Shown: piece by piece, positions 6,030 to 62,586 of the stretch
How positions within the stretch are numbered: the first letter of the stretch is position 1
How the letters are laid out: each line of letters begins with the position of its first letter
Source of the DNA: a virus
Lineage: Duplodnaviria; Heunggongvirae; Uroviricota; Caudoviricetes
Virus record (IMG/VR): IMGVR_UViG_2671180139_000002
Span: 39,803 to 103,802 of that record
Reading direction: 5' to 3' (one strand)
Length of the DNA stretch: 64,000 nucleotides
Program-made: the position numbers and the translations under genes
The notes under the pieces: generated by a model
The model's input: the letters and a program-made list of their open reading frames with translations, nothing else
Told to the model about the DNA's origin: nothing
The model's database searches: none

Positions 6030-6284
6030 CTAATTCACGACCGAGAGATGGCTCGGTCGCTTCTTCGGAGAGGGGAGGGGAGGCGTCAGACGGCTGTTCA
6101 CGGCCTGCGCGTAAGGATGCGGGACGCCGGCGATCATCTGCCCATATCGCTCGGCCGTGTCGTGTCGGCCCAGAAGCCACTCCTTCGGCTCGCGACCGGT
6201 GGTGATCATCATGAGCACGGGCGGCTTCCGGAAGCGCGGGTAACACCCTGTCACGCCGGCGCCGTTCTCGTTTGCAGCCTTCAT
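6030..6284 (-). CDS. hypothetical protein
   Basis: 84-aa ORF, preferred over the overlapping Arg-rich frame 6010..6480. Confidence 0.25.
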   Translation of the reverse strand: MKAANENGAGVTGCYPRFRKPPVLMMITTGREPKEWLLGRHDTAERYGQMIAGVPHPYAQAVNSRLTPPLPSPKKRPSHLSVVN

Positions 6285-6287
6285 AAG

Positions 6288-6545
6288 TCAATCCTGACTG
6301 TTGTCGGTGAGCGCGACAAAACCCAAGAGCGCGCACACGAGATGGAAGAGGCGGGCGCCGAGCCAGAAGACAGGCGCCAGGGCGAGGGTGACGAGCGCGA
6401 GAAGGAGCGCCAGGACGCACATGGTCACCGCCCTGAGCGGCCAGTAGAGAGCGATTACCAAGCTCTCCGGCGCGCGCCACAGATCCTGCAATGCTAGCTT
6501 GAGGGCATCCAGGCGACGCTCCGGCCGAATGATCCTAAGCCGCAC
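6288..6545 (-). CDS. small membrane protein (2 TM)
   Basis: Two hydrophobic helices (VTMCVLALLLALVTLALAPVFWLGARLFHLVCALLGFVAL). Confidence 0.35.
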   Translation of the reverse strand: MRLRIIRPERRLDALKLALQDLWRAPESLVIALYWPLRAVTMCVLALLLALVTLALAPVFWLGARLFHLVCALLGFVALTDNSQD

Positions 6546-9621: not shown

Positions 9622-9632
9622 GGGTTGCGATA

Positions 9633-9651
9633 GGTCAATATTGACTTATCA
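9633..9651. promoter_or_regulatory. conserved palindromic motif instance (GGTCAATATTGACTTATCA)
   Basis: Member of the GATAAGTCA-N4-TGACTTATC family; overlaps the rIIB stop codon. Confidence 0.5.
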
Positions 9652-13343: not shown

Positions 13344-13408
13344 TGATCTTCCTCGTGTGTGTGATCGCGTCTGAATTACATTAGCAACTCAGACGCGGGA
13401 TGCAGTAG

Positions 13409-13427
13409 GTAAGTATTTACTTACTAG
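13409..13427. promoter_or_regulatory. palindromic motif variant (GTAAGTATTTACTTACTAG)
   Basis: Between the kinase stop (13424) and the rIIA start; shares GTATTTACTTACTAGT with the copy at 19151. Confidence 0.45.
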
Positions 13428-16107: not shown

Positions 16108-16152
16108 ATGTTCCTCGTGTGTGCGAGGAGCCCTAAGGCCCCTCGCGTGTGT

Positions 16153-16171
16153 AGTCAATGCTGACTTATCA
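16153..16171. promoter_or_regulatory. palindromic motif instance (AGTCAATGCTGACTTATCA) followed on the plus strand by TTTATAGC (gene-strand GCTATAAAT)
   Basis: Between the grx stop and the lipoprotein start; the gene-strand TATAAAT is T4-late-like. Confidence 0.5.
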
Positions 16172-19107: not shown

Positions 19108-19150
19108 GATTGCCTGCGGAGAGGAGAGTGAAAGGGTGCCTATCCTAGTT

Positions 19151-19169
19151 AAGTCAGTATTTACTTACT
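19151..19169. promoter_or_regulatory. palindromic motif instance (AAGTCAGTATTTACTTACT)
   Basis: Intergenic between the RuvC-like gene and nrdB. Confidence 0.5.
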
Positions 19170-21238: not shown

Positions 21239-21247
21239 TGCGTTTCC

Positions 21248-21263
21248 AGTCAGTATTGACTTA
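21248..21263. promoter_or_regulatory. palindromic motif instance (AGTCAGTATTGACTTA) with gene-strand GCTATAAT 8 nt upstream
   Basis: Gene strand reads cgcTATAATtgattttgTAAGTCAATACTGACTggaaacgcaATG. Confidence 0.55.
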
Positions 21264-26874: not shown

Positions 26875-26964
26875 TGCGCTTCCCGTTCTGTGTGCGTGTG
26901 TCGTGTCGTCAATCAACACTTACTTATCTATAGCGACGCGCGAGAGGCTTGCGATGGGAAAGTC

Positions 26965-29352: not shown

Positions 29353-30407
29353 GCCGCCCTCGCGAAGGGTTCACACCAGCCGTCGATATCAGTCAAAATT
29401 GACTTGAAAGACAGCTCGGAGCAAAAGCTGGCGAAGTCGTCGCGTTCCAGGCTCCCGGCAGTGAGCTTGAGACGGGCGGGCGCGGGAATGTCGGGCGAAT
29501 TTAGATCCATCAGGGTCATGTTGCGGGTGAAGATGAAGTGCTTCTCCTCCTGCTCGGCGAAGTCGCGCAGCTTCTTGGGCAGCTTGGCAGCATCGATCGT
29601 GCGATCGAGGACCTGGTTGCGGAAGGAGACGACCGAACCGTAGGTGCGCAGGAGCTCGATTGCGCCCTTCTCGCCGATACCACCGACGCCGGGAATCTCG
29701 TCGGACGCATCGCCCATCAGAGCCTTAATCTCCAACCAGGCGCGAGGGGAGGGGACGCCCATCCAGCCGTCGATCTCGTCCTTGCCGTTACAGACGACAA
29801 TCCGCTTCTTCGCCGGATCGTAGCCGAGCTTCTTCTCCAGCGTATTCAGGGTGAGGAGCTCGCCGCGCTGCGGATCGAACCAGCTCACATTAGGCTGGAT
29901 AAGCTGGATCCAGTCCTTGTCGCCGGAGAGCATCAGAACCTTCTTGCCCTGCGCTGCATAGCGGCGAGCCAGGATGGCGGCGAGATCGTCGGCCTCGAGG
30001 TTCATGGCCGCGAGCTGGCTGACGCCAAGATGCTTGAGGCCCTTCAGAATGAGCGGCCGCTGCACCTTGTAGCCCTTTCGCAGGGCAAGCTGTGCCTTCG
30101 CGGCTGGCGTGTCGGCCGGAGCGTCTCGCCCAGCCTTGTATTCCTCGTAGAAGTGCTTGCGCCAGGACACGCCGTCCCAGAGCACCACGGGTTTGAGAAG
30201 AGGGTAGCGGGCGACAGCCATGCGGATGGCGCGCATGAAGCCGAAGACCGCCTGGACCTCCATTTCGCCGACGGTCAGCTTCTTGGTCGCTGCTGCAGCG
30301 AAGCCGATGTTGTTGCCGTCGATCAGCAGATAGCCGTTGGTCATGAATTCCTCGAGCGAGACATGAAAACGGCGGCGCCCACGAGATACAGGAGAGCGCC
30401 GCCGCAA
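29349..30407 (-). CDS. 5'-3' exonuclease / flap endonuclease (T4 RNase H-like)
   Basis: N-terminal LLIDGNNIGFAAA (PIN-like 5'-nuclease), an acidic metal-binding cluster, and a central H3TH-like region. Confidence 0.8.
   Translation of the reverse strand: MRRRSPVSRGRRRFHVSLEEFMTNGYLLIDGNNIGFAAAATKKLTVGEMEVQAVFGFMRAIRMAVARYPLLKPVVLWDGVSWRKHFYEEYKAGRDAPADTPAAKAQLALRKGYKVQRPLILKGLKHLGVSQLAAMNLEADDLAAILARRYAAQGKKVLMLSGDKDWIQLIQPNVSWFDPQRGELLTLNTLEKKLGYDPAKKRIVVCNGKDEIDGWMGVPSPRAWLEIKALMGDASDEIPGVGGIGEKGAIELLRTYGSVVSFRNQVLDRTIDAAKLPKKLRDFAEQEEKHFIFTRNMTLMDLNSPDIPAPARLKLTAGSLERDDFASFCSELSFKSILTDIDGWCEPFARAA
29391..29405. promoter_or_regulatory. palindromic motif instance (AGTCAAAATTGACTT) embedded in the FEN C-terminal coding sequence
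   Basis: Lies ~40 nt upstream of the start of 28960..29352. Confidence 0.4.
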
Positions 30408-33318: not shown

Positions 33319-33342
33319 GCGTTCCTCGTTCCGTCCGGTGTT

Positions 33343-33362
33343 AAATCAGTATTTATTGATCA
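33343..33362. promoter_or_regulatory. motif variant (AAATCAGTATTTATTGATCA) followed by TAGCGA
   Basis: Between the dnaE stop and the start of gene 32788..33318. Confidence 0.4.
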
Positions 33363-36776: not shown

Positions 36777-37321
36777 CCCCTCTTGAGTGTCAGGCGCCCG
36801 TTCATCTCCTCCGCCGCGCCTAGCGCGACGAGAGCCTGACAGGCTTGAATTGCGTGAGAGGCCGCGGTCGCGGAGCTCCAGCCGAGCTTGGACTGGAGAG
36901 CCTGGCGCAGCATGTTGCGGTCAAAGCCCGAGGGCAGACGGAGCAGCAGGTGACAGGCGACCCGCATGAAGACGGGGGTCTTCTCAAACGGGTTCTCGCC
37001 GGCCGACAGACGTTCCGTCACCTTGATGCCGGCGCGCTCGAAGCGAGCGAGCAGCTCCTCTACCTTCTTCGGCAGGTTGCTCGTCAGTTGGATCGCCGGC
37101 GCGGGGTCGAGCTTCTTGGGCCGTTCCGCGCGCATTGCGGTCTTGGTCTTGCGCTCCACGATGCCGAGCTTGGCGCGGACATAGGCCATGTTGGCGGCGC
37201 TCAGCGGCCCGCAATTGGCCGCGAAGACGCACGTTTTGCATTCCGCCGCTTCAGCCTTGAAGGTCAGGGCCGAGCCGTAGCAGCCCGGCGCGCCCAGCGG
37301 CCTTTCCTTGCCACAAGTCAT
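36773..37321 (-). CDS. Cys-rich hypothetical protein
   Basis: 182 aa; N-terminal C...C...C..C cluster; ATGA overlap with dnaE. Confidence 0.4.
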   Translation of the reverse strand: MTCGKERPLGAPGCYGSALTFKAEAAECKTCVFAANCGPLSAANMAYVRAKLGIVERKTKTAMRAERPKKLDPAPAIQLTSNLPKKVEELLARFERAGIKVTERLSAGENPFEKTPVFMRVACHLLLRLPSGFDRNMLRQALQSKLGWSSATAASHAIQACQALVALGAAEEMNGRLTLKRG

Positions 37322-37950
37322 TATTGACTGACGACTCCCGTGATGGATCGGACCTCGTGATAGATTGCTTGGCGCTCCACGCGGTTGGCGCCCATGAGGT
37401 CGAAGATCAGCCCCGCCGTGAGTTGGTTGGGGGCATAGGTGTTGATGCCGCGCGAACGGGCATATTCGGACTTGGCCTTGATCGCCTGGATCTCAGCGAA
37501 GAGCTCCGGTGGCGGGTTTTCCAGGAGCTCGACGAATTGGCGAGCCCGTGGCGAAAGCCGCCTGAGGACCCGAGCCAGGCTATCTCGCTCGATGGCGCTT
37601 TGCTCCGGCAACGGCGCTGCATCCGGGAAGACGGAATGCAGACTGGCTCCTTCGCCATCCTCGCCCAGGTTCTTGTCGAGGGAGATCGCGGTCATGTGAG
37701 AGTCACCGATCGCGTCAGCGAGGAAGCGATTGATGTGGTTCTTCATGCCGCGCGTGAGGAAGGCGCCAAAGGGGACGTTGTACTCCGCCTTCCAAGCATC
37801 GCGCGCGAGGCACCAGGCGATCGAGAGCTCCTGAACGATGTCCTCGAACTCCACTCCGCGGGCTCCTGCAGCATGAACACGCTGCAGGACCTTGCGGGCG
37901 AAGCCGCGGATCAGCGGCTGACTGCTCTCATAGGTGATCTCCGGCTGCAT
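37321..37950 (-). CDS. RNA polymerase sigma factor (sigma-70 family region-2-like; possibly gp55-type late sigma)
   Basis: DIVQELSIAWCLARDAWKAEYNVPFGAFLTRGMKNHINRFL resembles sigma region 2; LSPRARQFVELL resembles region 4. Confidence 0.5.
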   Translation of the reverse strand: MQPEITYESSQPLIRGFARKVLQRVHAAGARGVEFEDIVQELSIAWCLARDAWKAEYNVPFGAFLTRGMKNHINRFLADAIGDSHMTAISLDKNLGEDGEGASLHSVFPDAAPLPEQSAIERDSLARVLRRLSPRARQFVELLENPPPELFAEIQAIKAKSEYARSRGINTYAPNQLTAGLIFDLMGANRVERQAIYHEVRSITGVVSQ

Positions 37951-39143: not shown

Positions 39144-39206
39144 GAATTCTCACCTCGTGTGTGTGCTGTGATGCTTTGACTTTATCGATTTCGACGCGGA
39201 AGACAA

Positions 39207-39222
39207 GTAAGTAATGACTTAC
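39207..39222. promoter_or_regulatory. palindromic motif variant (GTAAGTAATGACTTAC)
   Basis: Between the cobT-like stop and the cobS-like start. Confidence 0.4.
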
Positions 39223-41516: not shown

Positions 41517-41567
41517 GTGGTGTGATGTCCTCTCGTAAGTCGCTGCTGACTCACAAGCAAAAAGTTA

Positions 41568-41894: not shown

Positions 41895-41917
41895 GATAAG
41901 TCAGTATTTACTGAACA
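41895..41917. promoter_or_regulatory. motif instance (GATAAGTCAGTATTTACTGAACA)
   Basis: Just downstream (gene strand) of the XRE-gene terminator; near-identical to the copy at 47997..48017. Confidence 0.45.
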
Positions 41918-41994: not shown

Positions 41995-42399
41995 TCAGGT
42001 CGTGGGCGAGCCGAAGACCGTTTCGAGCTTCTGCTCTAGGTCCGGCGTGAGCGACGGGTCCTGGTTATCCGTCAGCTCGCGGATCTTGGCGAGAACCTTG
42101 GACTCGTTCTTGGAGCAGATGGTGCCGAAGACGGTCCCGATCACATCGATGGACCAGCCATGCTGTTCCATTGCGAGACGGAAGAGAAAGGCGGGGTCGA
42201 CGTTCAGAGACTTCGCCAGCAGCGGAATCTTGTCCATCGGAACTCGAGCTTCGCCGCGCTTGATCATGGAGATCATGTTCGGCTTGTCATAGCCGACTTC
42301 GTCGGCGATCTGACGCTGGGTCTTCATACCCTGGATCGCGTCGATCTGCTTGCTCAGGTAGCTTGCAAGCCTAGTATGCTCGAACGGCCGTGCCGGCAT
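41995..42399 (-). CDS. XRE-family (Cro/CI-like) HTH transcriptional regulator
   Basis: MKTQRQIADEVGYDKPNMISMIKRGEARVP is a typical HTH_XRE; it diverges from the plus-strand membrane-protein island. Confidence 0.7.
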   Translation of the reverse strand: MPARPFEHTRLASYLSKQIDAIQGMKTQRQIADEVGYDKPNMISMIKRGEARVPMDKIPLLAKSLNVDPAFLFRLAMEQHGWSIDVIGTVFGTICSKNESKVLAKIRELTDNQDPSLTPDLEQKLETVFGSPTT

Positions 42400-42595: not shown

Positions 42596-42618
42596 GATAA
42601 GTCAAAACATATTGATCA
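42596..42618. promoter_or_regulatory. motif variant (GATAAGTCAAAACATATTGATCA) in the divergent intergenic region
   Basis: Lies in the 42400..42876 non-coding region. Confidence 0.35.
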
Positions 42619-51081: not shown

Positions 51082-52197
51082 TCAACAGTCAAAACTGACT
51101 GATTGTTTTTGATCCGCGTAGTGATTGCGAAGACGCCACTTCACGTCGAGCGTGGCGCTGTAGACTGTCGCCTTGTAGAAGGCGTCCTGGACCACCTCGG
51201 GCAGGACCTCGTTCGGATCGCAGTTCGAGGGCAGCAGCGCGATACGCACCCGCAGTCCGATGCGGCGAAGCTGCTTGGCCGCGTCCAGGGCGGAGACGAG
51301 CGCACGCCATTCGCCGTCCCACATGATCGTGACCTCTTCCAGACCCGCACGCTTGAGCTGCAGGAAGCAGCCGAGCTGATCCTTGCCGTCGACCGAACCG
51401 AAGGATAGGTGCTTGCCGAAGGAACCGATCGGCACGACGTCGCGAAGGTCGATCTTCTCGTCGAAGGCTTTCTTGATCGCCATGACGTCAAAGGCGCCCT
51501 CACCCATCACGACGCGCTTTGCCCGCAAGGCATTCTGCCCGTTGAAGAGGAAGCGCCCGGTGCCAGGAAGCCCCTTGGGAAACAGGTACTTCTCGCTCTG
51601 ATCTCCGATCACATCACGGCCCTGAAACGTCACCAGCTTGCCGTCGAGATCGAACACCGGGATGATCAGGCGATTGACGAACTTCTGACCGCCTTGGGAG
51701 CCATCCTCCTTCAGGAAGTTCCACCATCCGTCCGTGCAAAAGCGGAGATGGAAGAATTTCGCCAGATCGCCGCTGATGCCGCGTTTCTCCAGATAAAGCA
51801 GGTTCTGCCCCTCACCCGTGGGTAGCGGGAACGAAACCGGCAGCTTCACCTCGCCAAACTCGACCGCAGCGGTCGTCGTTCGTTTGGGCTTCCAGCCCTG
51901 CTCCTTCAGAACCTCCCGGACGTGATTGAAGGTCTCCGCCCAGCTCAGGCCCAGGTTCGCGTTCACGAATTTGAGCTTGTTGAAGCCGGCGTTGCAGACG
52001 AAGCAATTGCCGAGCCCGGTCTCCGCGTTGAGATAGACCCGGTAACGACGATCGCCGCACTCCGGGCACTCGCGCATGTTGAGCTGCATACCGGAGGAGC
52101 CGCGCCCCTTTCGGTACGCCAGCCCCTCTCGCTCGCACCAATATTCCAGGTCGAGTTCGTCGGAGAGTTCCTGAGCGTCGCCGCCCCGCTCCGACAT
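51082..52197 (-). CDS. DNA primase (zinc-binding CHC2 plus TOPRIM)
   Basis: CPECGDRRYRVYLNAETGLGNCFVCNAGF is a CHC2 zinc ribbon; a TOPRIM-like acidic core follows. Confidence 0.8.
   Translation of the reverse strand: MSERGGDAQELSDELDLEYWCEREGLAYRKGRGSSGMQLNMRECPECGDRRYRVYLNAETGLGNCFVCNAGFNKLKFVNANLGLSWAETFNHVREVLKEQGWKPKRTTTAAVEFGEVKLPVSFPLPTGEGQNLLYLEKRGISGDLAKFFHLRFCTDGWWNFLKEDGSQGGQKFVNRLIIPVFDLDGKLVTFQGRDVIGDQSEKYLFPKGLPGTGRFLFNGQNALRAKRVVMGEGAFDVMAIKKAFDEKIDLRDVVPIGSFGKHLSFGSVDGKDQLGCFLQLKRAGLEEVTIMWDGEWRALVSALDAAKQLRRIGLRVRIALLPSNCDPNEVLPEVVQDAFYKATVYSATLDVKWRLRNHYADQKQSVSFDC
51086..51101. promoter_or_regulatory. palindrome CAGTCAAAACTGACTG embedded in the primase 3' coding end
   Basis: Encodes QSVSFDC; nested in the larger inverted repeat GGATCAACA...TGTTTTTGATCC. 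Confidence 0.4.
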
Positions 52198-53716: not shown

Positions 53717-53983
53717 TTACTCCGCCGGGCGGTAGCCCTGGATGTCGTGCTTAAAGAGAGTCAAAGTCAATACTGACTTATCTTCCCGAATGCGAAGAAG
53801 CAAGGCGTACTGATCGGCTTCGAGGAGCTCGCCTGTCACCTGGGTGCCGTCGCGGAAGAGAACGACGATCTTGCGACCGCGAAGCTCCCGGAGCTGCTGC
53901 TGGTGCGACCAGAGCTTCGGCTTGAACGGCTGACGCTCACCCTTGCGAGCGATCTCGATCGGGCGACGAGTTTCGTTTCTCAT
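53717..53983 (-). CDS. Sm-fold, Hfq-like small protein
   Basis: KIVVLFRDGTQVTGELLEADQYALLLR...VLTLTLFKHDIQ parallels Hfq Sm1/Sm2 ([27 protein letters not shown]...QMVYKHAIS). Confidence 0.4.
   Translation of the reverse strand: MRNETRRPIEIARKGERQPFKPKLWSHQQQLRELRGRKIVVLFRDGTQVTGELLEADQYALLLRIREDKSVLTLTLFKHDIQGYRPAE
53764..53779. promoter_or_regulatory. palindromic motif instance (AAGTCAATACTGACTT) embedded in the 3' end of the Hfq-like gene
   Basis: Encodes EDKSVLTL; ~45 nt upstream of the helicase start. Confidence 0.45.
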
Positions 53984-54738: not shown

Positions 54739-55555
54739 GAAATCTCAAGACCCTGTGCAGACCGTCTGTGTCGTCAGAGACATAGCGATCAGACTCAGGG
54801 TCAGCAGCGTTTCCCGAATAGGCGTTGACGATGTCCTGGACGATGCCGTGCCGAACGATGTCCTGCACGCCAAAGCGCACGGTCTTGATGCTGCCGACAT
54901 GGCCGAGCCGGAGCACCGCATCCTCCAGACCGGACTTGCTGCGATCCGGAAGATCGCACTGGGAAGGATCGCCGTTGATGATGAACTTGGAGTTCTCGCC
55001 AATACGGGTCAGCAGCAGCTTCATCTGGGTGATGGATGCGTTCTGCATTTCGTCGGCAATCAGCCAGGCATTCTTGATCGTGGCACCGCGCAGGAAGGCC
55101 AGAGGCCACGCCTCGATCGTGCCGGCCTTCAGATGGTACTCCAGAGCTCCGGAACCGAGAGTTTCCTCCAGGGCGTCGCGCACGGGCCGGAAATAGGGCT
55201 CGTATTTCTCGTCCAGTTCGCCGGGCAGAAAGCCAAGAGACTCGCCGGCCTCGACTGCCGGGCGAGTGACGATGATGCGCTCGATCTTGCGGGCCTTCAG
55301 AGCTTCCGCGGCACGCGAGGCGGCCCACCAGGTCTTGCCGGTTCCTGCAGGCCCGATGCCGAAGGTAATGGTGCCGGTCTGGATCGCGGTGTCGTAGGCG
55401 ACCTGGGAAGCGTTGAGCGGCTTCAGTTCGCGATTGCTCGGGCGAACGTGACGAGTGGGGGCCTCATCCTGGACGAGGCGCAACAGCGGCTCGTTGTTGC
55501 GCGTCTTACCCTGGCGCCGGTCCTGACGATTTGCGGCGCGATTCTTGGAGGCCAT
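54731..55555 (-). CDS. phoH: PhoH-like ATPase
   Basis: Walker A GPAGTGKT followed by the conserved VTRPAVEAGESLGFLPG...KYEPYFRPVRD block of PhoH. Confidence 0.85.
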   Translation of the reverse strand: MASKNRAANRQDRRQGKTRNNEPLLRLVQDEAPTRHVRPSNRELKPLNASQVAYDTAIQTGTITFGIGPAGTGKTWWAASRAAEALKARKIERIIVTRPAVEAGESLGFLPGELDEKYEPYFRPVRDALEETLGSGALEYHLKAGTIEAWPLAFLRGATIKNAWLIADEMQNASITQMKLLLTRIGENSKFIINGDPSQCDLPDRSKSGLEDAVLRLGHVGSIKTVRFGVQDIVRHGIVQDIVNAYSGNAADPESDRYVSDDTDGLHRVLRFHG

Positions 55556-55597: not shown

Positions 55598-55621
55598 TGA
55601 TAAGTCAGTATTGATCTATCA
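55598..55621. promoter_or_regulatory. palindromic motif instance (TGATAAGTCAGTATTGATCTATCA)
   Basis: ~45 nt upstream of the phoH start. Confidence 0.5.
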
Positions 55622-56337: not shown

Positions 56338-59102
56338 TACCCAATGACAAGATAATTGACGCCAACTGAACTATTCTGAACGGGCGTATAGGAATTGGAG
56401 TTGTAGAAGGTCACCACCATCTTGGACGTGCTATACGAGGTGATGCTGTACGACCAGATGTAGCTGTTGTTCATCGCGACGATGGGGATGCACTGCGAGA
56501 AGGTGCGCGGGAATGTGAAGGTGACATTGCCGTTGCTGTCCGTCGTTCCGCCGACATGTACGAAGTAGGCGGTCAGACTTCCAATCGTAAAATAATACTG
56601 GTTGGAGCTGTGAGACGCAGACGGCATATCCGCGTCTGCAGCCGCACCCAAGGTCGACCTCGCTGTGGCGGCCGTCGTGTCATCCAGCAGCGTTTTTATA
56701 AATGACGAAATGCCGAGATTGCTTAGCGCTGAGGCGGCGCTGGTCAGCTCGCTGAGGTTGTTCGACCCCTTCATGAACCCGGATGTGCTCGGGATGTCGC
56801 TTGTGGCAGCCGCACCGATCGCGCTGCGAGCCGCCGCCTGGCTGGCTGCCCCGAACAACGCTTTACCGATGCTGGACGCGCCCAGGTTCGTGAGAGCTGT
56901 CGCAACATCGGTGAGATCAGCGAGGTTCTGATCCTTTGCGAGCTTCTGCCCGACAGTGGTGATCAGCGCGGCGAGTGCGGAATCTTCATCCTGCACCTTC
57001 GCTGCGAGCTCGTTAATCGTGTCCAACGTCTCGGGCGCGATGCCACCCATGATGCCGGCTACGGCCGAAGCGAGCGCCAGCGCGACAAACTCGGTTGTGG
57101 CGAACTGACGGGAGCTGGTGCCAGGTACGGGCGTGTCGCCTTTAGCTACGCCACTGAAATCCGGATCCTGAAGCGGTGCCTTTGCGGCGAGTACGTCGGG
57201 CAGATCCCCGATATCCTCGGCCACCAGGATGATGTCGCCGGTTCTTCCCGCCACTTTCGTGACAGGAGCCACCGGAAGCTGCGCCGCCGGAACCTTTCCA
57301 TCGGCATCCAGACCTGCATAGCCGTTGGCGACGTTCTTCACGGCAGCCAGCTCTCGAGGGCGAATATAGCCGGTGCCCGTGCCGCCGATGATAGCCGAAG
57401 TTCCGGAAAAGGCGTTGCTGTTCAGCTTCCCGGCGAGTGCCTGGTCCACATCATCGCGCGGATAATAGAACTCGTCGTAATCACCCTGCTCAGGTACGAC
57501 ATGCCCGGCGCGATTTGCGAAGGTGAGCACGCCGCCGTCGGCGATCGTCTCAGCCTCCTTGGCGGCCGCCTCTGCGCGATCGGCAAATCCCGACGCGTTC
57601 TGCTCGGACTGTGCGGCGGCTTCGGCCGAAGCGTTAGCGGCATCCTGCGAATTCTTGGCCGCGGCTGCATATCCAGCCCCGCTCTCCTCACTGGCTTTAG
57701 CTTCCGCCGCGGAAGTCGCAGCGGCAGACGCAGAGCCGGAGGCCGCAGTCGCACTAGCGGCCGCAGCTTTCTCGCTGTCATGGGCAGCGCCAGCCGATCC
57801 TGCTGCAGCCTGGGCGCTGTCGTTGGCGGCTGTGGCAGACCCCGATGCCGCGTCGGCGCTGTCATGCGCTGCCGCAGCGGATCCCGATGCGGCTTCCTCG
57901 CTGCCATGCGCCGCGTCAGCGGAGTCGGAGGCCGCTCCCGCACTTACACCGGCGGCATCGGCCGAAGCCCTAGCAGCATCCCGCGCGTTCTCGGCAGCCG
58001 CATCGTGGGCCGCGCTATTTTCCTCACTGGTCTGAGCGGCTGCGGCGGAAGCGGCCGAAGCGTTCTCACTGCCCTTTGCCGCTGCGGCCGAAGACGCGGC
58101 TCCCTTCTCGCTGCTGGCTGCAGCCGAAGCGGAGGCGGCTGAAGCGTCTTCGCTCCCCTTGGAATTAGCCGCAGAGTTCGCGGAAGCATCCGCACTGCCC
58201 TGCGCTGCCGTTGCCGAAGTGGAAGCAGCAGTTTCGCTGTTCTTGGCCGCGACCGCAGACTTCGCGGCTGCGTCTTCGCTGCCATGGGCGGCCGACGCGG
58301 ACGCGGCCGAGGCGTTCTCGCTATCCTTGGCCGCACCCGCCGACGACGCCGAAGCCTCCGCGCTGCCGCGAGCGGAATCTGCAGATGCTGCTGCAGCCTC
58401 TTCGCTGTCGTGCGCCGCCTTCGCCGACGCAGCCACGGCCTCTTCACTGCCGTGCGCAGCATCTGCAGATTCCGCTGAGGCATCCGCGCTCTTCTGCGCG
58501 TCGGTAGCCGATGTCGCTGCGGCAGCGGCACGTTCATCCGCCGCTGCGGCGGAGTCGGCAGCAGCTTCTTTGCTGCCACGAGCCGCGTCGGCTGACGCTG
58601 CCGAAGCAACCTTGTTGTCATTCGCCGCGGACGCGGATTTCGCGGCTGCGTCGCTTGAACTCGCCGCGGCTGTTTCGGACGCCGCGGCGTGCTGTTCGGA
58701 AAGAAGCGCGGCAGAAGCGGCTTTGGTCGAACTATCCGCCAGACCCTGCAATTCAGGCGTGATGTCGCCCGTGTCGCCCTTGTCCCCCTTAGACGCCATC
58801 AGCGTCCATTTGGAAGCGTCAAAGGCAGTACCGGACTTGTGCGCAGTCGCGCACACATAAAGCGACCCGCCGAACGTAACCAGGCTTGCGGGCGGGCCGA
58901 TCACGTAGCTCGTGCTCGCCGCCCACGCCTTCGCTGCAGACCAGGGAACCGGGCCGGTGTTACCGGTGTCACCCTTCTCACCGCGAGGCCCGCCGTCTTC
59001 CATGATGATCTGGAAGCCCGGTTCCTCACTCTGCAGGATCGTGTCGCCGTTGCCCGAGAGCTCGACGTCGTAAAAGGACTCAAGAACAGCAACGCCGCTC
59101 AT
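56334..59102 (-). CDS. tail fibre protein with ~25 tandem 14-aa Ala/Ser-rich repeats
   Basis: N-terminal collagen-like GDKGDTGNTGP; central repeats of the form A.AA.(G/D/N)SE.A(S/A)A(A/S)S; C-terminal beta-rich tip (NVTFTFPRTF...VGVNYLVIGY). Confidence 0.7.
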   Translation of the reverse strand: MSGVAVLESFYDVELSGNGDTILQSEEPGFQIIMEDGGPRGEKGDTGNTGPVPWSAAKAWAASTSYVIGPPASLVTFGGSLYVCATAHKSGTAFDASKWTLMASKGDKGDTGDITPELQGLADSSTKAASAALLSEQHAAASETAAASSSDAAAKSASAANDNKVASAASADAARGSKEAAADSAAAADERAAAAATSATDAQKSADASAESADAAHGSEEAVAASAKAAHDSEEAAAASADSARGSAEASASSAGAAKDSENASAASASAAHGSEDAAAKSAVAAKNSETAASTSATAAQGSADASANSAANSKGSEDASAASASAAASSEKGAASSAAAAKGSENASAASAAAAQTSEENSAAHDAAAENARDAARASADAAGVSAGAASDSADAAHGSEEAASGSAAAAHDSADAASGSATAANDSAQAAAGSAGAAHDSEKAAAASATAASGSASAAATSAAEAKASEESGAGYAAAAKNSQDAANASAEAAAQSEQNASGFADRAEAAAKEAETIADGGVLTFANRAGHVVPEQGDYDEFYYPRDDVDQALAGKLNSNAFSGTSAIIGGTGTGYIRPRELAAVKNVANGYAGLDADGKVPAAQLPVAPVTKVAGRTGDIILVAEDIGDLPDVLAAKAPLQDPDFSGVAKGDTPVPGTSSRQFATTEFVALALASAVAGIMGGIAPETLDTINELAAKVQDEDSALAALITTVGQKLAKDQNLADLTDVATALTNLGASSIGKALFGAASQAAARSAIGAAATSDIPSTSGFMKGSNNLSELTSAASALSNLGISSFIKTLLDDTTAATARSTLGAAADADMPSASHSSNQYYFTIGSLTAYFVHVGGTTDSNGNVTFTFPRTFSQCIPIVAMNNSYIWSYSITSYSTSKMVVTFYNSNSYTPVQNSSVGVNYLVIGY

Positions 59103-59431
59103 CGCGTAACTCCCTGGGCAACATCAACGATGACTTCGGCGACGGCACTCGTGGATCCGTTCACGGTGCGCAGGAGGTCACCCACGTACTTTCCGGCCGT
59201 CAGCTTCCCCTTGCCGATCGCGAGCACGAACTGGTTCGTGCCCTTGGCGATGGTGATGCCCCCGTTTGAGCTTGTCAGATCGAGTGCCACCTCTTTATCG
59301 GAGGCGTTCTTGCGAAGCTGCATCTCCATGGTGGAACCATCGAGCAGCGTCGCATCGCCGTCAGCATTCGTGAGCCGGAAGCTCCGGCTCCAATCAGCAT
59401 TCGTGCGGGTCTTGATCTTTAGTCGAAACAC
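59099..59431 (-). CDS. hypothetical protein (tail-associated by position)
   Basis: 110 aa with a GTG start; overlaps the tail-fibre start (ATGA). Confidence 0.4.
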   Translation of the reverse strand: MFRLKIKTRTNADWSRSFRLTNADGDATLLDGSTMEMQLRKNASDKEVALDLTSSNGGITIAKGTNQFVLAIGKGKLTAGKYVGDLLRTVNGSTSAVAEVIVDVAQGVTR

Positions 59432-59455
59432 CGATCGGCCTCGCTGAGTGTCGTT

Positions 59456-59471
59456 AAGTCAATATTGACTT
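59456..59471. promoter_or_regulatory. perfect 16-bp palindrome AAGTCAATATTGACTT (best instance of the family)
   Basis: Gene strand reads gtgTTATCATAAGTCAATATTGACTTaacgacactcagcGAGGccgatcggGTG. Confidence 0.55.
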
Positions 59472-59505
59472 ATGATAACACTCGGCAGGAGCGATGAAAA
59501 CCGGA

Positions 59506-60633
59506 TTAGGCGTAGCCCATCTGCTTACGCAGCATGTCCAGCACCTGAATTCCCCGGTACATATCCTCGAAGAACATGGTCTCGCCGGTCTCCGGAACGT
59601 GGATCGTCATCGGCGTCAGGAACGGCTGGTTGGCGCGGAAAGCTTCGCGCTTGGCATAGCCATCAATCGTCTTGTAGGCGCCGAGCTGGATGCCATGAAC
59701 GATGCGGCTGCGACCCATCCACTGCTTCTCGATCGAGGTGTGTCCGGCGACGTGGATGTGCCCGCCCCAGACGACATCCTCGCCCTGCCAGTTCTCCAGG
59801 ATCCACACGGTGATCGCGTGAACGGAGTTGAAGCGGGAGTTGCCGCGATACTTGTGCCGAGCGATGTGAGTGAAGGATTCCCCGTTCGGAGAGTTCATGC
59901 GCACGCGGACCTGGTCCGTGTCGTAGATCGGGCCGAGACCGTAATCGTCGAACATCTTCTTGAGGACGTCGACGCCGCCGGCGCTCGTGGTCCAATCCAT
60001 GTGATTGCCGGAGATCGCGGCGATCATCTTCGGAGCCAGGACGGAGATGTAGTGCTCAGCCAGGCGCCAGGCGTCGGAGTGGCTCATGATGTCCTTGCGA
60101 CGCTCGCGCTCCAGGAAGCCGACGATGAAGTTGTCGAGCCAATCGCCGATACCGACAGCGAAGAGATGCGGGTGCTGGTTGATCACATAGGCGTCGTCAA
60201 AGGCGCGACGCACCAGCGTGCCGATGTTGTTGAGGTGATGATCCGGAAGCCCCACGACGCCATACGGCCCGGGGAACTGCACGTTCAGGTCGATGCAGGA
60301 CTTCTGGTGATGGTGGGTGGCGAAGCGTTCGTTGCCGTCGATTACGCGCTTCAGGAGATCCTCAACCGGTTCCTCGTAAGGCTCCGGGAGTGTCTCGATC
60401 GTGCGGAACTTCTCGCCGATCGGCGCGACCGTGGCGGCCTTTGCCTTGCGGGAGATGAGAGCAGGAACCGCTTCGCCGCTTTCATGCAGCCGGCGGACCA
60501 TGACAGCATGGTTCCGGACCGTGCGCGGGGAGATGTCGAGAGCCGCGGCAACATCGCCGATGGTGGGATAGCGCGTCACGTCATTGTAGATCCGGGCGAA
60601 GTTCTCCCAGCGGGTCTCTTCCATAACTGTCAT
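59506..60633 (-). CDS. N-terminal HTH fused to a calcineurin-like metallophosphoesterase
   Basis: HTH TIGDVAAALDISPRTVRNHA; phosphoesterase motifs GDWLDN, GNHMDW, GGHIHVAGH. Confidence 0.55.
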   Translation of the reverse strand: MTVMEETRWENFARIYNDVTRYPTIGDVAAALDISPRTVRNHAVMVRRLHESGEAVPALISRKAKAATVAPIGEKFRTIETLPEPYEEPVEDLLKRVIDGNERFATHHHQKSCIDLNVQFPGPYGVVGLPDHHLNNIGTLVRRAFDDAYVINQHPHLFAVGIGDWLDNFIVGFLERERRKDIMSHSDAWRLAEHYISVLAPKMIAAISGNHMDWTTSAGGVDVLKKMFDDYGLGPIYDTDQVRVRMNSPNGESFTHIARHKYRGNSRFNSVHAITVWILENWQGEDVVWGGHIHVAGHTSIEKQWMGRSRIVHGIQLGAYKTIDGYAKREAFRANQPFLTPMTIHVPETGETMFFEDMYRGIQVLDMLRKQMGYA

Positions 60634-60650
60634 GTGTTTCTCTTCAGGGT

Positions 60651-60671
60651 AAGTCAGTGTTGACTTATAAG
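60651..60671. promoter_or_regulatory. palindromic motif instance (AAGTCAGTGTTGACTTATAAG)
   Basis: 18 nt upstream of the 60633 start codon. Confidence 0.5.
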
Positions 60672-61371: not shown

Positions 61372-61637
61372 GGGCCAGGTCCGTTCGGAGGAGAGGGAGG
61401 CAGGCTGGCGCGCTTGTTATTGTCGTCCCAAACCGCGCCGAAGATGTAGGCGAAGAGCAGTGCGATGCCGGCGCCCAGCAGCGTCATGAACGCCTGCGCC
61501 TGGAGCGGGCCGGCACCGAGGATCAGAAGATACTCGGCGTTGCCGGCGATCCAGGCGAGCGCCAGGTACAGGAGCCGGCGACGCCTGGGCCAGTTGTCGA
61601 GGTAGAGCGTCTCGACCAGCTCCTGCGGGGATCTCAC
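61365..61637 (-). CDS. small 2-TM membrane protein (holin/antiholin candidate)
   Basis: Two hydrophobic helices; lies between the endolysin and spanin genes. Confidence 0.35.
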   Translation of the reverse strand: MRSPQELVETLYLDNWPRRRRLLYLALAWIAGNAEYLLILGAGPLQAQAFMTLLGAGIALLFAYIFGAVWDDNNKRASLPPSPPNGPGPC

Positions 61638-62182
61638 TGCAGGAAGCTCTTGGCGCGGTTGGTCCAGCCCTTCAGGAACTTCGACTGGGATGCGTCGTGC
61701 GCCACGATGCTCTGATAGAATTCGATACGCTCCGCGACGATCTGGTTGACGACGGTCTTCGCGCCCAGACGGGCAACCGCATTCGCCGCGGCCGCTTCAG
61801 TCTTCGGCCCGGAATAGCCATCGACCTTGAGCCCGGCCTTGGCGCAGGCGTTCAGCGCTTCCTGCAGGCACTTGATCGAGCGGCCGCCGCCGGCATTCAC
61901 CGAGATGTCGAAGAGCTGCGGCTGAAGCACGTCGGGAAAACCGTCGATGCCCGGAGCCTGAAAGAAATCGCGCTTGTAGAGGCGGTGGGCGATCTCCGGC
62001 GTGACCAGCATGATGTCGTGCTTGTCGATGTCGCCGTCGTGATCGAGGTCCATCTCCGGCTTGCCCTTGGCATAGCGCAGCGACACACCAAGGTTGGTGG
62101 CGCCGCCGGCGTCACCACGGACCTCGTTGTAGCCCCCTTCCCGCTTGATGATGTCGTCGATCATCTGGTCAACGGTCTGCAT
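61634..62182 (-). CDS. endolysin: GH108 N-acetylmuramidase with C-terminal peptidoglycan-binding domain
   Basis: N-terminal IIKREGGYNEVRGDAGGATNLGVS is the GH108 signature; C-terminal VDGYSGPKTEAA is PG_binding_3-like. Confidence 0.75.
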   Translation of the reverse strand: MQTVDQMIDDIIKREGGYNEVRGDAGGATNLGVSLRYAKGKPEMDLDHDGDIDKHDIMLVTPEIAHRLYKRDFFQAPGIDGFPDVLQPQLFDISVNAGGGRSIKCLQEALNACAKAGLKVDGYSGPKTEAAAANAVARLGAKTVVNQIVAERIEFYQSIVAHDASQSKFLKGWTNRAKSFLQ

Positions 62183-62202
62183 GGTAAATCAATCCTGACT
62201 GA

Positions 62203-62520
62203 TCAATGAGTGTACGGAAATGCCTTGAAGACCTTGTCGAGGATCCCGAGACCCCAGGTGAGCAAACCGCCGACCGCGATGATCACGAACCAGCCGCCGC
62301 GCGCCTTGTTGACGAGGGTGTTGACGGCACCGATGCCACTGCCAATCGACTGAATCTCCTCGCGGAGCCCCTCGATCTCCTTCATGGACTCCTTACGGTG
62401 CTGGCTCATCTCCTGCTTGGTCTCGCGCCGGTGTTCGGCAAAATCGTCGGACAGGCGAGACAGGCGCTCGATTACGACGGCAAGCGTCGGATCTTTGGTC
62501 TCGAGAGAACTCGGCATCAC
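62203..62520 (-). CDS. membrane protein with C-terminal TM (holin candidate)
   Basis: Charged coiled-coil N-terminus and a C-terminal TM (GGWFVIIAVGGLLTWGLGIL); first gene of the lysis cassette. Confidence 0.35.
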   Translation of the reverse strand: MMPSSLETKDPTLAVVIERLSRLSDDFAEHRRETKQEMSQHRKESMKEIEGLREEIQSIGSGIGAVNTLVNKARGGWFVIIAVGGLLTWGLGILDKVFKAFPYTH

Positions 62521-62568
62521 TCACTCCAGGTCAGAGAAGGACGCCGCGGTCACTCGGGCATCAGAGAT

Positions 62569-62586
62569 AAATAAATACTGATTTAT
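62569..62586. promoter_or_regulatory. palindrome AATAAATACTGATTTATT with gene-strand TATAATAAAT (T4-late-like)
   Basis: ~50 nt upstream of the lysis cassette start (62520). Confidence 0.45.

What the first reader, a model, noticed from the sequence alone, without database searches (positions are those of the whole stretch)
59456..59471. Recurrent 16-24 bp palindrome (GATAAGTCA-N4-TGACTTATC), often with gene-strand TATAA(A/T)T, 10-45 nt upstream of about 20 start codons
Instances were found at about 9633, 13409, 16153, 19151, 21248, 26908, 29391, 33343, 39207, 41895, 42596, 47997, 51041, 51086, 53764, 55598, 59456, 60651 and 62569, with a half-site at 689. The core is AAGTCA-NNNN-TGACTT, sometimes extended to TGATAAGTCA...TGACTTATCA, with variants AGTATTTACT. 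On the gene (minus) strand many copies are preceded by GCTATAAT, TATAAAT or TATAATAAAT. Examples: cgcTATAATtgattttgTAAGTCAATACTGACTggaaacgcaATG at 21238, and GCTATAAATGATAAGTCAG at 16153. Several copies lie inside the 3' coding end of the upstream gene, e.g. encoding EDKSVLTL in the Hfq-like gene and QSVSFDC in the primase. The TATAAAT-like element resembles the T4 late-promoter box TATAAATA read by gp55, and a sigma-like gene is present at 37321..37950. The palindrome would then sit at about +1 to +25, acting either as a DNA operator for a dimeric phage regulator or as a 5' leader stem-loop (AGUCA-N4-UGACU) on every such transcript. The element serves early-type, replication and late genes alike, which is unusual.
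Basis: seen in the sequence. Interest (0 to 1): 0.8.

Follow-up and report, generated by a model that had tools for sequence, protein, structure and literature searches.

The report
Dispersed operator of a phage-plasmid regulator
The recurrent palindrome is real and is most likely about 20 copies of the DNA docking site of one phage-encoded helix-turn-helix regulator, placed on promoters all along a phage-plasmid; the same genome-wide switch appears to be shared with SSU5-type phage-plasmids of enterobacteria, and it is neither an RNA hairpin nor a phage-sigma promoter.

Summary
The consensus TAAGTMA-N4-TKACTTA (window form TGATAAGTCA-ATAT-TGACTTATCA) occurs 25 times at 3 or fewer mismatches, against 0.7 expected. 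Nineteen copies lie in the 11% of the window that is intergenic, mostly 2-67 nt before minus-strand start codons.

The window is a RHEph10/pLM21S1-type phage-plasmid; its XRE protein is identical to a Faunimonas pinastri protein. The motif is equally enriched in six alphaproteobacterial relatives, four metagenomic relatives and three SSU5-type phage-plasmids. It is absent from the lytic, XRE-less relative nickie.

The two arms are equally conserved but vary independently: pairing is below shuffled controls, there is no wobble bias, and predicted hairpins are weak. This indicates a dimeric dsDNA-binding protein, not an RNA stem. Recognisable promoters place the site over the -10/+1 region or the -35/-10 spacer.

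The best candidate binder is the conserved XRE protein (41995-42399, minus strand). It co-occurs with the motif, has a copy in its own control region, and one residue at the recognition-helix cap predicts half-site position 6 (K/Q gives C, N gives A) in 13 of 13 elements, four of them blind.

The T4-late/sigma idea is not supported. Verdict: a new member of a known kind (dispersed repressor operators). No binding experiment exists.

The parts
62568..62585 (.). Palindrome copy TAAATCAGTATTTATTTA, intergenic, 50 nt before gene 62203-62517
   Evidence: 2 mismatches. A sigma70-like promoter TTGCCG-17-TATAAT ends exactly at its first base.
62185..62202 (.). Palindrome copy TCAGTCAGGATTGATTTA, 2 nt before the ATG of gene 61634-62182; the spacer AGGA doubles as a Shine-Dalgarno sequence
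60650..60667 (.). Perfect copy TAAGTCAACACTGACTTA, 16 nt before gene 59506-60633
   Evidence: 0 mismatches.
59455..59472 (.). Perfect copy TAAGTCAATATTGACTTA (the flagged instance), 23 nt before gene 59099-59431
   Evidence: A promoter-like TTTTCA-17-TATCAT with TG ends at its first base.
55601..55618 (.). Copy TAGATCAATACTGACTTA with TGA...TCA extension, before gene 54731-55555
53763..53780 (.). Copy TAAGTCAGTATTGACTTT inside the 3' end of the Hfq-like ORF (53717-53983), 49 nt before the DnaB-like gene
   Evidence: 1 mismatch.
51085..51102 (.). Copy TCAGTCAGTTTTGACTGT at the 3' end of the primase-like ORF, followed by a GCTATAAG box
   Evidence: 3 mismatches.
42598..42615 (.). Half-site copy (right arm TTTTGACTTATC) in the divergent region, 198 nt upstream of the XRE gene; the orthologous position carries a full site in all relatives
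41897..41914 (.). Copy TCAGTAAATACTGACTTA just after the intrinsic terminator of the XRE gene, before the small ORF 41568-41777
   Evidence: 1 mismatch.
41536..41553 (.). Copy TGAGTCAGCAGCGACTTA, 19 nt before the CobT-like gene; positionally conserved in all relatives
39204..39221 (.). Copy TAAGTCATTACTTACTTG, 60 nt before the CobS/MoxR-like gene; a site at this position is present in all 10 annotated motif-bearing elements, including SSU5, Cyrano and pJN2-26
37314..37331 (.). Copy TCAGTCAATAATGACTTG overlapping the sigma stop codon and the ATG of gene 36773-37321
   Evidence: 2 mismatches.
33342..33359 (.). Copy TCAATAAATACTGATTTA abutting GCTATGAT, 23 nt before gene 32788-33318
29389..29406 (.). 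Copy CAAGTCAATTTTGACTGA in the 3' end of ORF 29349-30344, 36 nt before gene 28960-29352
26909..26926 (.). Copy TAAGTAAGTGTTGATTGA directly after GCTATAGA, before gene 26323-26874
21246..21263 (.). Copy TAAGTCAATACTGACTGG, 10 nt after GCTATAAT and 7 nt before the ATG of gene 20789-21238
19150..19167 (.). Perfect-class copy TAAGTAAATACTGACTTA before the RNR small-subunit-like gene 18127-19107
   Evidence: 0 mismatches to the degenerate consensus.
16151..16168 (.). Copy TAAGTCAGCATTGACTAC after GCTATAAATGA, with a degenerate second copy at 16180-16195
13406..13423 (.). Copy TAAGTAAATACTTACCTA before the RIIA-like gene 10983-13343
   Evidence: 1 mismatch.
9631..9648 (.). Copy TAAGTCAATATTGACCTA with TGA...TC extension, before gene 8934-9563
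   Evidence: 1 mismatch.
6284..6301 (.). Copy ACAGTCAGGATTGACTTA immediately before the ATG of gene 6030-6284 (spacer AGGA serves as Shine-Dalgarno sequence)
41995..42399 (-). XRE-family HTH gene (134 aa), the proposed binder of the palindrome
   Evidence: Pfam HTH_3; PHROG transcriptional regulator/repressor; AF2 model with pLDDT 87.6, HTH helices 28-35 and 41-48; fold matches C.BclI, C.AhdI, lambda cI NTD and 434 Cro; K39 co-varies with operator position 6.

Best explanation
The palindrome is the operator of a phage-plasmid-encoded dimeric helix-turn-helix regulator, most probably the XRE protein at 41995-42399 (minus strand).

Each copy is two inverted half-sites, T-A-A-G-T-(C/A)-A, whose centres are 11 bp apart, often extended to TGATAAGTCA.

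Copies sit on or just downstream of the promoters of nearly all replication and structural transcription units: over the -10/+1 region, or in the -35/-10 spacer. One protein can therefore occlude RNA polymerase genome-wide, keeping the lytic programme silent while the element replicates as a RepC plasmid. A copy in the regulator's own control region would give autoregulation.

Shown here: enrichment, location, symmetry without pairing constraint, conservation across 14 elements, register relative to predicted promoters, co-occurrence with the XRE gene, and residue-base co-variation.

Inferred: that XRE is the binder, that binding represses transcription, and that this maintains lysogeny.
For: 1. 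Real and intergenic: 25 hits against 0.7 expected, 19 of them in the 11% of the window that is intergenic. All six alphaproteobacterial relatives show the same pattern.

2. A dsDNA dimer site rather than a stem. Both arms have the same conservation profile. The variable arm positions do not co-vary positively (Fisher odds ratio 1 or less; for RHEph10 plus Pararhizobium, pair 4 has OR 0.23, p=0.033, and pair 6 has OR 0, p=0.008). The tool control gives 78.0% paired against 82.4% shuffled. G:U against A:C is 37 to 27.

3. A self-contained unit: no column outside about 22-24 bp is conserved.

4. Promoter register. The GCTATAA box ends 0-5 nt before the site in 15 copies. Of 13 sigma70-like hits within 70 nt of a site, 7 have the -10 ending 0-5 nt before it. 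In the enterobacterial relatives all 12 promoter hits have the -10 ending 0 to +38 nt from the site start, for example SSU5 TTGAAA-[site]-TATCAT. Many sites lie only 9-12 nt before the ATG, so they cannot be upstream activator sites.

5. Phage-encoded specificity: closely related hosts (R. etli, R. leguminosarum) carry elements with different half-sites.

6. Link to XRE. The motif and an XRE homologue occur together in 7 alphaproteobacterial elements, Cyrano, pJN2-26 and 4 metagenomic elements. Both are absent from the syntenic lytic phage nickie. tblastn finds no homologue of the window's sigma in the SSU5-type elements.

7. A copy lies in the control region of every XRE gene.

8. The residue aligned with 434 Cro Gln28, at the N-cap of the modelled recognition helix, predicts half-site position 6. 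K/Q goes with 70-100% C and N with about 73-94% A, in 13 of 13 elements, 4 of them fetched afterwards as a blind test.

9. The plasmid/lysogeny-type plus-strand island (RepC, RHH, superinfection immunity) and the stretch 42616-51084 have no copy.

10. pLM21S1 is a resident plasmid-prophage, so a maintenance repressor is needed (PMC4447125).
Against: There is no binding or expression data at all.

In the window the copy upstream of the XRE gene is only a half-site, 198 nt away.

In the alphaproteobacterial elements the XRE gene is co-directional with the lytic genes rather than divergent.

About three quarters of the alphaproteobacterial copies have no recognisable promoter next to them, so some may lie inside operons.

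The block of small genes with host-type GCTANAWC boxes (window 6 kb to 0.2 kb) has almost no copies and would escape this control.

SSU5 keeps the sites but has no detectable XRE homologue. This fits a deletion, but the deletion is assumed.

The K/Q/N correlation rests on perhaps only two or three independent evolutionary changes.

XRE homologues in non-phage contexts have no such sites nearby.
Confidence: 0.6

Rival explanations
1. The palindrome is a dimeric protein-binding site, but the binder is a different conserved phage protein, or the XRE protein acts in the lytic cycle as a timing regulator or activator (as R-M controller proteins both activate and repress) rather than as the lysogeny repressor.
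For: The symmetry and promoter data demand only a dimeric DNA binder. The closest folds are controller proteins, which are dual activator/repressors (PMC3351150). A few sites lie about 20 nt upstream of a GCTATAA box, with the site centre near -41. RHEph10 and B1VFA were isolated as plaque-forming phages (PMC12509600). SSU5 has the sites without an XRE homologue.
Against: The residue-base co-variation is specific to XRE. No other candidate is conserved between the alpha- and gammaproteobacterial clades; the adjacent small ORF is not. Sites 9-12 nt from start codons cannot be upstream activator sites. No -10 element is found at a fixed distance downstream.
Confidence: 0.22
2. The palindrome acts in the mRNA as a 5' leader or intercistronic stem-loop that stabilises, processes or translationally controls each transcript.
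For: It lies in the transcribed orientation close to start codons. Two copies carry AGGA in the 'loop' right before the ATG (6284, 62185). Across lineages both arms change together (AGTCA/TGACT against AGTAA/TTACT).
Against: Within lineages there is no compensatory change: pairing is below shuffled controls and the covariation score is 0.082 against 0.136. There are 114 non-wobble mismatches against 37 G:U and 27 A:C. There is no sense-strand wobble bias. Predicted hairpins are weak and AT-rich in a 61% GC genome. The central 'loop' tends to be palindromic itself. There is no Rfam hit.
Confidence: 0.05
3. The palindrome, alone or with the TATAAAT-like box, is the promoter recognised by the phage-encoded sigma factor (37321-37950), in the manner of a T4 late promoter.
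For: The sigma gene is conserved in all alphaproteobacterial members. The palindrome is the only conserved element in front of most replication and structural genes, some of them directly after terminators. Nickie lacks both the sigma and the motif.
Against: The element is two-fold symmetric with equal arm conservation, unlike any sigma-read promoter. The half-sites are 11 bp apart, not the -35/-10 geometry. SSU5, Cyrano and pJN2-26 have the motif but no homologue of this sigma by tblastn. The box is the host-type -10 and accompanies only about 17% of copies.
Confidence: 0.05
4. The copies are centromere-like or architectural sites (ParB/KorB-type), or dispersed recombination cassettes, with no primary role in transcription.
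For: The relatives encode ParA and ParB-like proteins. Dispersed palindromic partition or global-regulator sites exist in N15 and RK2 (own knowledge).
Against: The narrow register relative to core promoters. The positional conservation in front of the same genes across clades. The co-variation with XRE. The ParB-like genes were not tested for co-variation.
Confidence: 0.04

Closest known systems
Stoperators and operators of cluster A mycobacteriophages (L5 gp71, TipsytheTRex repressor)
   Same: More than twenty repressor sites are spread through the genome, at promoters and in short intergenic gaps of both early and late regions, giving genome-wide silencing in the lysogen (PMC9283540). The repressor-less relative D29 keeps the sites, as SSU5 seems to do here.
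   Different: Stoperators are asymmetric 13-mers bound by a monomer with two DNA-binding domains, and they work only in one orientation. The sites here are two-fold symmetric 18-24 bp palindromes, and the candidate protein is a small XRE HTH with a helical C-terminal domain.
C1 repressor operators of phage-plasmid P1 (own knowledge)
   Same: A plasmid-prophage in which one repressor controls many operators dispersed around the genome, each overlapping a promoter.
   Different: P1 operators are asymmetric 17-mers, C1 is not an XRE-type protein, and P1 late genes are controlled indirectly through Lpa. Here the structural genes carry the sites too.
Conserved inverted repeats (CIRs) of Streptomyces phage phiC31 (own knowledge; not retrievable in the paper library)
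   Same: An operator tied to autoregulation of the repressor gene recurs as highly conserved inverted repeats in many intergenic regions of the phage.
   Different: Different protein family, sequence and host phylum. phiC31 integrates into the chromosome, whereas this element is a RepC plasmid-prophage.
R-M controller (C) proteins and their C-boxes (C.Esp1396I, C.AhdI, C.BclI)
   Same: These are the closest solved folds to the XRE N-terminal domain. They are dimeric HTH proteins reading an AGTC/GACT tetranucleotide around a bendable AT-rich centre, and they sit over -35 or +1 elements (PMC3351150).
   Different: C-boxes are GACT-N3-AGTC, usually as one pair upstream of the protein's own operon. 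Here the order is inverted (AGTCA-N4-TGACT), there are 20-40 copies, and the protein has an extra C-terminal domain. The similarity is weak (E about 0.003-0.06).
KorA/KorB global regulon of IncP plasmid RK2 (own knowledge)
   Same: Palindromic operators dispersed on a plasmid, through which one or two repressors coordinate replication, maintenance and transfer operons.
   Different: KorB is a ParB-family protein that also acts at a distance. There are no phage functions involved.

Membership tests
Dispersed phage-repressor operators (P1 C1 / L5 gp71 / phiC31 CIR kind) | Many copies of one short motif, far above chance, spread over the genome | tested here: met
   25 against 0.7 expected in the window. 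Relatives have 12-39 copies against 0.3-2.1 expected.
Dispersed phage-repressor operators (P1 C1 / L5 gp71 / phiC31 CIR kind) | Copies lie in intergenic or promoter regions of lytic genes | tested here: met
   19 of 25 lie in the 11% of the window that is intergenic. Predicted promoters fall in a narrow register over the sites.
Dispersed phage-repressor operators (P1 C1 / L5 gp71 / phiC31 CIR kind) | A copy in the control region of the repressor gene itself | tested here: met
   A full site lies upstream of the XRE gene in six alphaproteobacterial relatives. GGTAAG(C/T)ACTTACC lies 35-45 nt before the ATG in Cyrano and pJN2-26. The window itself has only a half-site at 42598-42615.
Dispersed phage-repressor operators (P1 C1 / L5 gp71 / phiC31 CIR kind) | The phage repressor physically binds the sites and represses transcription | not testable with these tools
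   There is only indirect support: co-occurrence with XRE and the K/Q/N against C/A co-variation in 13 of 13 elements.
Stoperators in the strict sense (cluster A mycobacteriophages) | Asymmetric 13-mer whose orientation follows the direction of transcription | tested here: not met
   The sites are palindromic, and the two arms have the same base frequencies.
Stoperators in the strict sense (cluster A mycobacteriophages) | Monomeric repressor with an HTH plus a 'stoperator' domain | tested here: not met
   The candidate is a 134-aa XRE protein. The top 50 fold matches are controller proteins, lambda cI, 434 Cro, ClgR, Stl and other XRE-type regulators, with no cluster A repressor among them.
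RNA stem-loop (5' stabiliser, processing site or translational operator) | Base pairing maintained by compensatory changes | tested here: not met
   78.0% of cells paired against 82.4% shuffled (500 of 500 shuffles at least as high). Covariation score 0.082 against 0.136. Fisher odds ratios are 1 or less.
RNA stem-loop (5' stabiliser, processing site or translational operator) | Sense-strand-specific tolerance of G:U, and a stable fold | tested here: not met
   G:U 37 against A:C 27, p=0.26. Mean folding energy of the 24-mers is -3.2 to -5.5 kcal/mol. No Rfam family matches.
Phage-sigma promoter (T4 gp55 late-promoter type) | Asymmetric -10-like consensus read by the phage sigma, found only where that sigma is encoded | tested here: not met
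   The element is symmetric. The motif is present in SSU5, Cyrano and pJN2-26, which have no tblastn homologue of the sigma.
R-M controller protein C-box operators | GACT-N3-AGTC boxes, paired, upstream of the C gene | tested here: not met
   Here the order and spacing are AGTCA-N4-TGACT and there are 20 or more copies. The C-box definition is from PMC3351150. Only the protein fold resembles that family.
XRE / HTH_3 family (the protein) | Five-helix lambda/434-type HTH domain | tested here: met
   Pfam HTH_3, E = 2.4e-5, above the gathering score. AF2 model with pLDDT 87.6. Foldseek matches to C.AhdI, 434 Cro and lambda cI NTD.

The most novel reading that the evidence does not exclude
A single ancient XRE-operator pair forms the master switch of the whole SSU5-related supergroup of roughly 100-120 kb siphovirus phage-plasmids, from Hyphomicrobiales and Rhodobacterales to Escherichia, Klebsiella and Salmonella. 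Operators sit in front of the same genes, for example cobS, across classes. One residue at the cap of the recognition helix (Lys/Gln against Asn) sets position 6 of the half-site (C against A). That would define immunity or incompatibility groups that can be read from sequence.
Probability: 0.4. Interest if true: 0.65.

Novelty: new member of a known kind. Interest (0 to 1): 0.5.

Why it matters
How the SSU5/pHCM2/pKpn-type and RHEph10/pLM21S1-type phage-plasmids control the choice between plasmid life and lysis is not described. A 2024 review lists no regulator for this group (PMC11652158), and the family papers mention no motif (PMC4447125, PMC12509600).

If the XRE protein binds these sites, this gives three things:
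- The regulator, its full regulon and its operator code for a widespread group of elements. Some members carry resistance genes in clinical enterobacteria, and others infect agricultural rhizobia.
- A sequence-based way to predict immunity groups.
- A compact, orthogonal repressor-operator pair for engineering in Alphaproteobacteria.

For genome annotation, it shows that the conspicuous palindromes in these elements should not be called terminators, RNA hairpins or sigma promoters.

Tried and rejected
- megablast of the window against phages and plasmids found no close relative. Relatives were reached only through proteins.
- Single-protein scans of viral contigs and genome contigs with the sigma protein found nothing.
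- An exact look-up of the window XRE in assemblies failed, although the protein database holds an identical Faunimonas pinastri entry. The look-up of P0054 also failed.
- RNA hairpin: rejected.
- Right arm TTGACT acting as a -35 for a downstream -10: rejected. No conserved column follows the site, and the spacings are 12-25 nt.
- Class II activator site: rejected for most copies, because 9-12 nt to the ATG leaves no room.
- Host transcription factor (IHF, FixK/FNR, RirA, LexA, CtrA and DnaA boxes recalled from memory): none fits. Lineage-specific half-sites in closely related hosts also argue against a host factor.
- GANTC methylation site: not contained in the motif.
- The small ORF downstream of XRE as a Cro-like partner: it is not conserved between clades and has no HTH hit.
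- Rfam: no family at gathering threshold.
- XRE homologues P0032 (Met) and P0149 (Ser), which could have extended the residue code, turned out to lie in non-phage contexts with no sites.
- The ParB-like proteins were not compared, because they lie outside the window.
Full report
**What the window is.** The window is about 61% G+C and almost all its genes are on the minus strand. It encodes a DnaE with a C-terminal UDG domain, ribonucleotide reductase, a DnaB-like helicase, a DNA ligase, CobT- and CobS/MoxR-like proteins, a protein with sigma-70 region 2, and an XRE (HTH_3) protein. An oppositely oriented island carries RepC, a ribbon-helix-helix protein, DUF805 and a superinfection-immunity protein.

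There is no nucleotide-level relative in the phage or plasmid collections. By protein, it belongs with Rhizobium phages RHEph10, B1VFA, V1VFA-S and RHph_X66 (DnaE about 60% identical) and with about 117 kb plasmids of Sinorhizobium (pLM21S1), Methylobacterium, Shinella, Rhizobium and Pararhizobium. Gene order is the same. This group has been called phage-plasmid-like (PMC12509600, PMC4447125, PMC7969092). The window's XRE protein is 100% identical to a Faunimonas pinastri protein on a 109 kb contig.

- AAGTCA-N4-TGACTT at 2 or fewer mismatches occurs 19 times against 1.25 expected.
- AGTCA-N4-TGACT is the most frequent exact 5+5 inverted repeat in an unbiased count.
- Comparison with relatives gave the generalised 18-mer TAAGTMA-N4-TKACTTA. 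At 3 or fewer of 14 mismatches the window has 25 hits against 0.7 expected, 19 of them in the 11.4% of sequence that is intergenic (coordinates).
Three are half-sites and one is weak. Four or five copies were missed.
- Copies lie 2-67 nt before minus-strand start codons. A few are in the last codons of the upstream gene, and two abut the ATG with AGGA in the spacer.

**Conservation.** Every relative examined has the motif at the same excess: RHEph10 39 hits against 2.1 expected, pLM21S1 13 against 0.3, M. oryzae plasmid 13 against 0.3, Shinella 19 against 1.0, Pararhizobium 12 against 0.7, B1VFA 20 against 0.4. Nearly all copies are intergenic.

Half-sites are lineage-specific:
- TAAGTCA in the window and M. 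oryzae.
- T(C/A)A(G/A)T(C/A)A in RHEph10 and Pararhizobium.
- TAAGTAA in B1VFA, pLM21S1 and Shinella.

Elements of closely related Rhizobium hosts differ, which argues for a phage-encoded reader rather than a host one. Sites recur in front of the same genes. The site upstream of the CobS-like gene is present in all ten annotated motif-bearing elements.

**DNA site or RNA stem?** I aligned 114 intergenic sites from seven elements.
- The two arms have the same conservation profile, so the element has no polarity.
- At the three variable positions the arms do not co-vary positively. In RHEph10 plus Pararhizobium, pair 4 is Watson-Crick in only 15 of 46 sites (G:T 17, A:C 13). Odds ratios are 0.23 (p=0.033) for pair 4 and 0 (p=0.008) for pair 6.
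- The pair-counting tool gives 78.0% standard pairs against 82.4% after shuffling (500 of 500 shuffles at least as high). The covariation score is 0.082 against 0.136.
- Sense-strand G:U (37) is not favoured over A:C (27).
- Predicted 24-mer hairpins average only -3 to -5 kcal/mol.
- Rfam finds nothing.

This is the signature of two degenerate half-sites read by a symmetric dimer on double-stranded DNA. It is not the signature of a selected stem.

**Relation to promoters.** Nothing outside about 22-24 bp is positionally conserved. The TATAA(A/T)T box is better described as GCTANAWC, the alphaproteobacterial housekeeping -10; that consensus is recalled from memory, not tested here. It is intergenic-enriched but accompanies only 19 of 114 copies. 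When it is present, it ends 0-5 nt before the palindrome in 15 cases.

The boxes cluster in a separate block of small genes (window about 6 kb to 0.2 kb; RHEph10 98-103 kb) that has almost no palindromes.

E. coli-type promoter predictions are rare in the alphaproteobacterial elements, but they fall in one register. Seven of 13 hits within 70 nt have the -10 ending 0-5 nt before the site. These include the two tool hits at 62613-62585 and 59500-59472.

In the enterobacterial relatives, all 12 hits near 31 sites have the -10 ending 0 to +38 nt from the site start. The site then abuts the -10, contains it, or fills the -35/-10 spacer.

Many copies leave only 9-12 nt to the ATG, so they must be at or after the transcription start. 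These are promoter-occluding positions.

**Who binds?** Three natural experiments and one blind test point to the XRE protein.
1. Pseudomonas phage nickie is syntenic but lacks RepC, XRE and sigma, and it has no copy of the motif: 0 hits against 0.9 expected at 3 or fewer mismatches.
2. tblastn finds XRE homologues in the Rhizobium phages and in nine records of SSU5-type phage-plasmids of Klebsiella and E. coli. Homologues of the sigma are found only in the Rhizobium phages. Cyrano, pJN2-26 and SSU5 all carry the motif, including the GATAAGT...ACTTATC extension. At 2 or fewer mismatches they have 7-10 copies against about 0.5 expected, mostly intergenic in Cyrano, the one where location was scored. 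Cyrano and pJN2-26 have a core copy 35-45 nt before the XRE start codon. SSU5 lacks the integrase-XRE block but keeps the sites.
3. The residue two positions before the invariant Asn of the recognition helix aligns with Gln28 of 434 Cro. It sits at the N-cap of helix 41-48 in a confident model (pLDDT 87.6). It is Lys in the window and M. oryzae, Gln in RHEph10 and Pararhizobium, and Asn in pLM21S1, B1VFA, Shinella, Cyrano and pJN2-26. Half-site position 6 is 79-91% C with Lys, 70-73% C with Gln and 73-83% A with Asn.
4. Blind test. Four further RHEph10-type loci were fetched through XRE homologues. They obeyed the rule: K-type L014 C14/A0 and L015 C2/A0; N-type L018 A8/C1 and L020 A20/C3.

The N-terminal domain folds like dimeric operator-binding proteins: C.BclI, C.AhdI, C.Esp1396I, lambda cI NTD and 434 Cro. 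Pfam detects only an HTH_3 domain and no peptidase domain. That is compatible with the report that pLM21S1 was not induced by mitomycin C (PMC4447125).

**Mechanism proposed.** An XRE dimer binds each palindrome and blocks RNA polymerase at the promoters of the replication and structural units, keeping them off while RepC maintains the element as a plasmid. A site in the regulator's own control region gives feedback. The stretch 42616-51084, which includes the plus-strand plasmid/immunity island, has no copies, as expected for genes expressed in the carrier state.

The steps not shown are binding itself, the sign of regulation, and the link to lysogeny.

The weak points are these:
- The window's own XRE-proximal copy is only a half-site.
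- The XRE gene is co-directional with the lytic genes in the alphaproteobacterial elements.
- Most alphaproteobacterial copies have no recognisable promoter.
- The host-promoter block has no sites.
- The residue-base rule rests on few independent evolutionary changes.

**Comparison with known systems.** Functionally this resembles the dispersed operators of P1 C1, the operators and stoperators of cluster A mycobacteriophages (PMC9283540) and the phiC31 CIRs. It also resembles the KorA/KorB regulon of RK2. It is not a stoperator in the strict sense, because it is symmetric and the protein type differs. It is not a C-box either, because half-site order and spacing are inverted and the copy number is far higher (PMC3351150).

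I found no description of this motif or of the regulator's targets for the RHEph10/pLM21S1 or SSU5 groups in the searchable literature. That search covers open-access papers only.

**Verdict.** This is a real and strongly non-random element. I classify it as a new member of a known kind, of moderate interest. Its main value is the comparative result that links it to one conserved regulator across alpha- and gammaproteobacterial phage-plasmids.

Noticed in passing
window 200-6100, minus strand (e.g. 2215-2338, 2588-2616, 4323-4529, 4967-5040, 5884-6029); also 27761-27831 and 31362-31510: A second recurrent intergenic motif, tTCGCTAAnTCGCG / GCTANAWC, clusters in a block of small genes that almost lacks the palindrome. 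RHEph10 has the same cluster at 98-103 kb. It looks like a set of host-type -10 promoters for an early region.
   Followed up: partly
window about 9575-9610 and 13360-13392 (minus strand); L009 (phage nickie) intergenic regions, e.g. 7944-8010, 13552-13622, 18071-18160, 37475-37596; L005 about 6400: GC-rich inverted repeats flank a -10-like hexamer in the loop (e.g. GCGCTCTGTCAgctataacttaCTGACAGAGCGC; nickie GTGCGCTCttacaatGAGCGCAC). In nickie this 'promoter in a hairpin loop' occupies the intergenic positions that carry the palindrome in the window family. It is unexplained.
   Followed up: no
window 6284-6301 and 62185-62202: In two copies the 4-nt spacer of the palindrome is AGGA and the ATG follows within 0-3 nt, so the operator also contains the ribosome-binding site.
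   Followed up: no
window, many 5' leaders on the minus strand (e.g. 9564-9600, 13344-13370, 16108-16140, 26875-26905, 39144-39170, 51023-51045): CA-rich tracts (CACACAC...) lie directly upstream of the Shine-Dalgarno sequence in many leaders.
   Followed up: no
window 33399-36776 (minus strand): The DnaE-type polymerase carries a C-terminal uracil-DNA-glycosylase-superfamily domain (residues 977-1102). The fusion also shows up in Pfam hits for the DnaE genes of metagenomic relatives (L014, L015, L018, L020) and in the RHEph10 annotation.
   Followed up: no
window 53717-53983 (minus strand): A small ORF has weak Hfq/LSm hits only (E about 0.002-0.003, below the Pfam gathering score). The 'Hfq-like' label is tentative.
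   Followed up: no
window 42400-48041: An oppositely oriented island holds DUF805-SHOCT, a superinfection-immunity protein, RHH and RepC. It is followed by a lower-GC stretch (46-48 kb, 54.5% GC) with ORFs that have no family hits and a T-run terminator near 47.9 kb. The stretch 42616-51084 has no palindrome copy.
   Followed up: partly
L011 (SSU5) 15897-16133 compared with L010 (Cyrano) 19516-21464 and L012 (pJN2-26) 18999-20960: SSU5 lacks the integrase-XRE-small-ORF block that its relatives have between the tRNA and cobT, yet it retains the operator copies. This would fit a repressor-deletion derivative (compare D29 with L5).
   Followed up: partly
L013, L016, L017, L019: XRE homologues 50-55% identical to the window or Shinella proteins also occur outside phage-plasmids, next to a type II CRISPR-Cas locus, a hydrogenase cluster, integrases and defence-like genes. 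There are no palindrome copies nearby.
   Followed up: partly
window 10983-13343 and 9649-10986 (minus strand): These large ORFs lie at the position of the genes RHEph10 annotates as RIIA and RIIB lysis inhibitors. Only a HATPase_c hit was found for the first.
   Followed up: no
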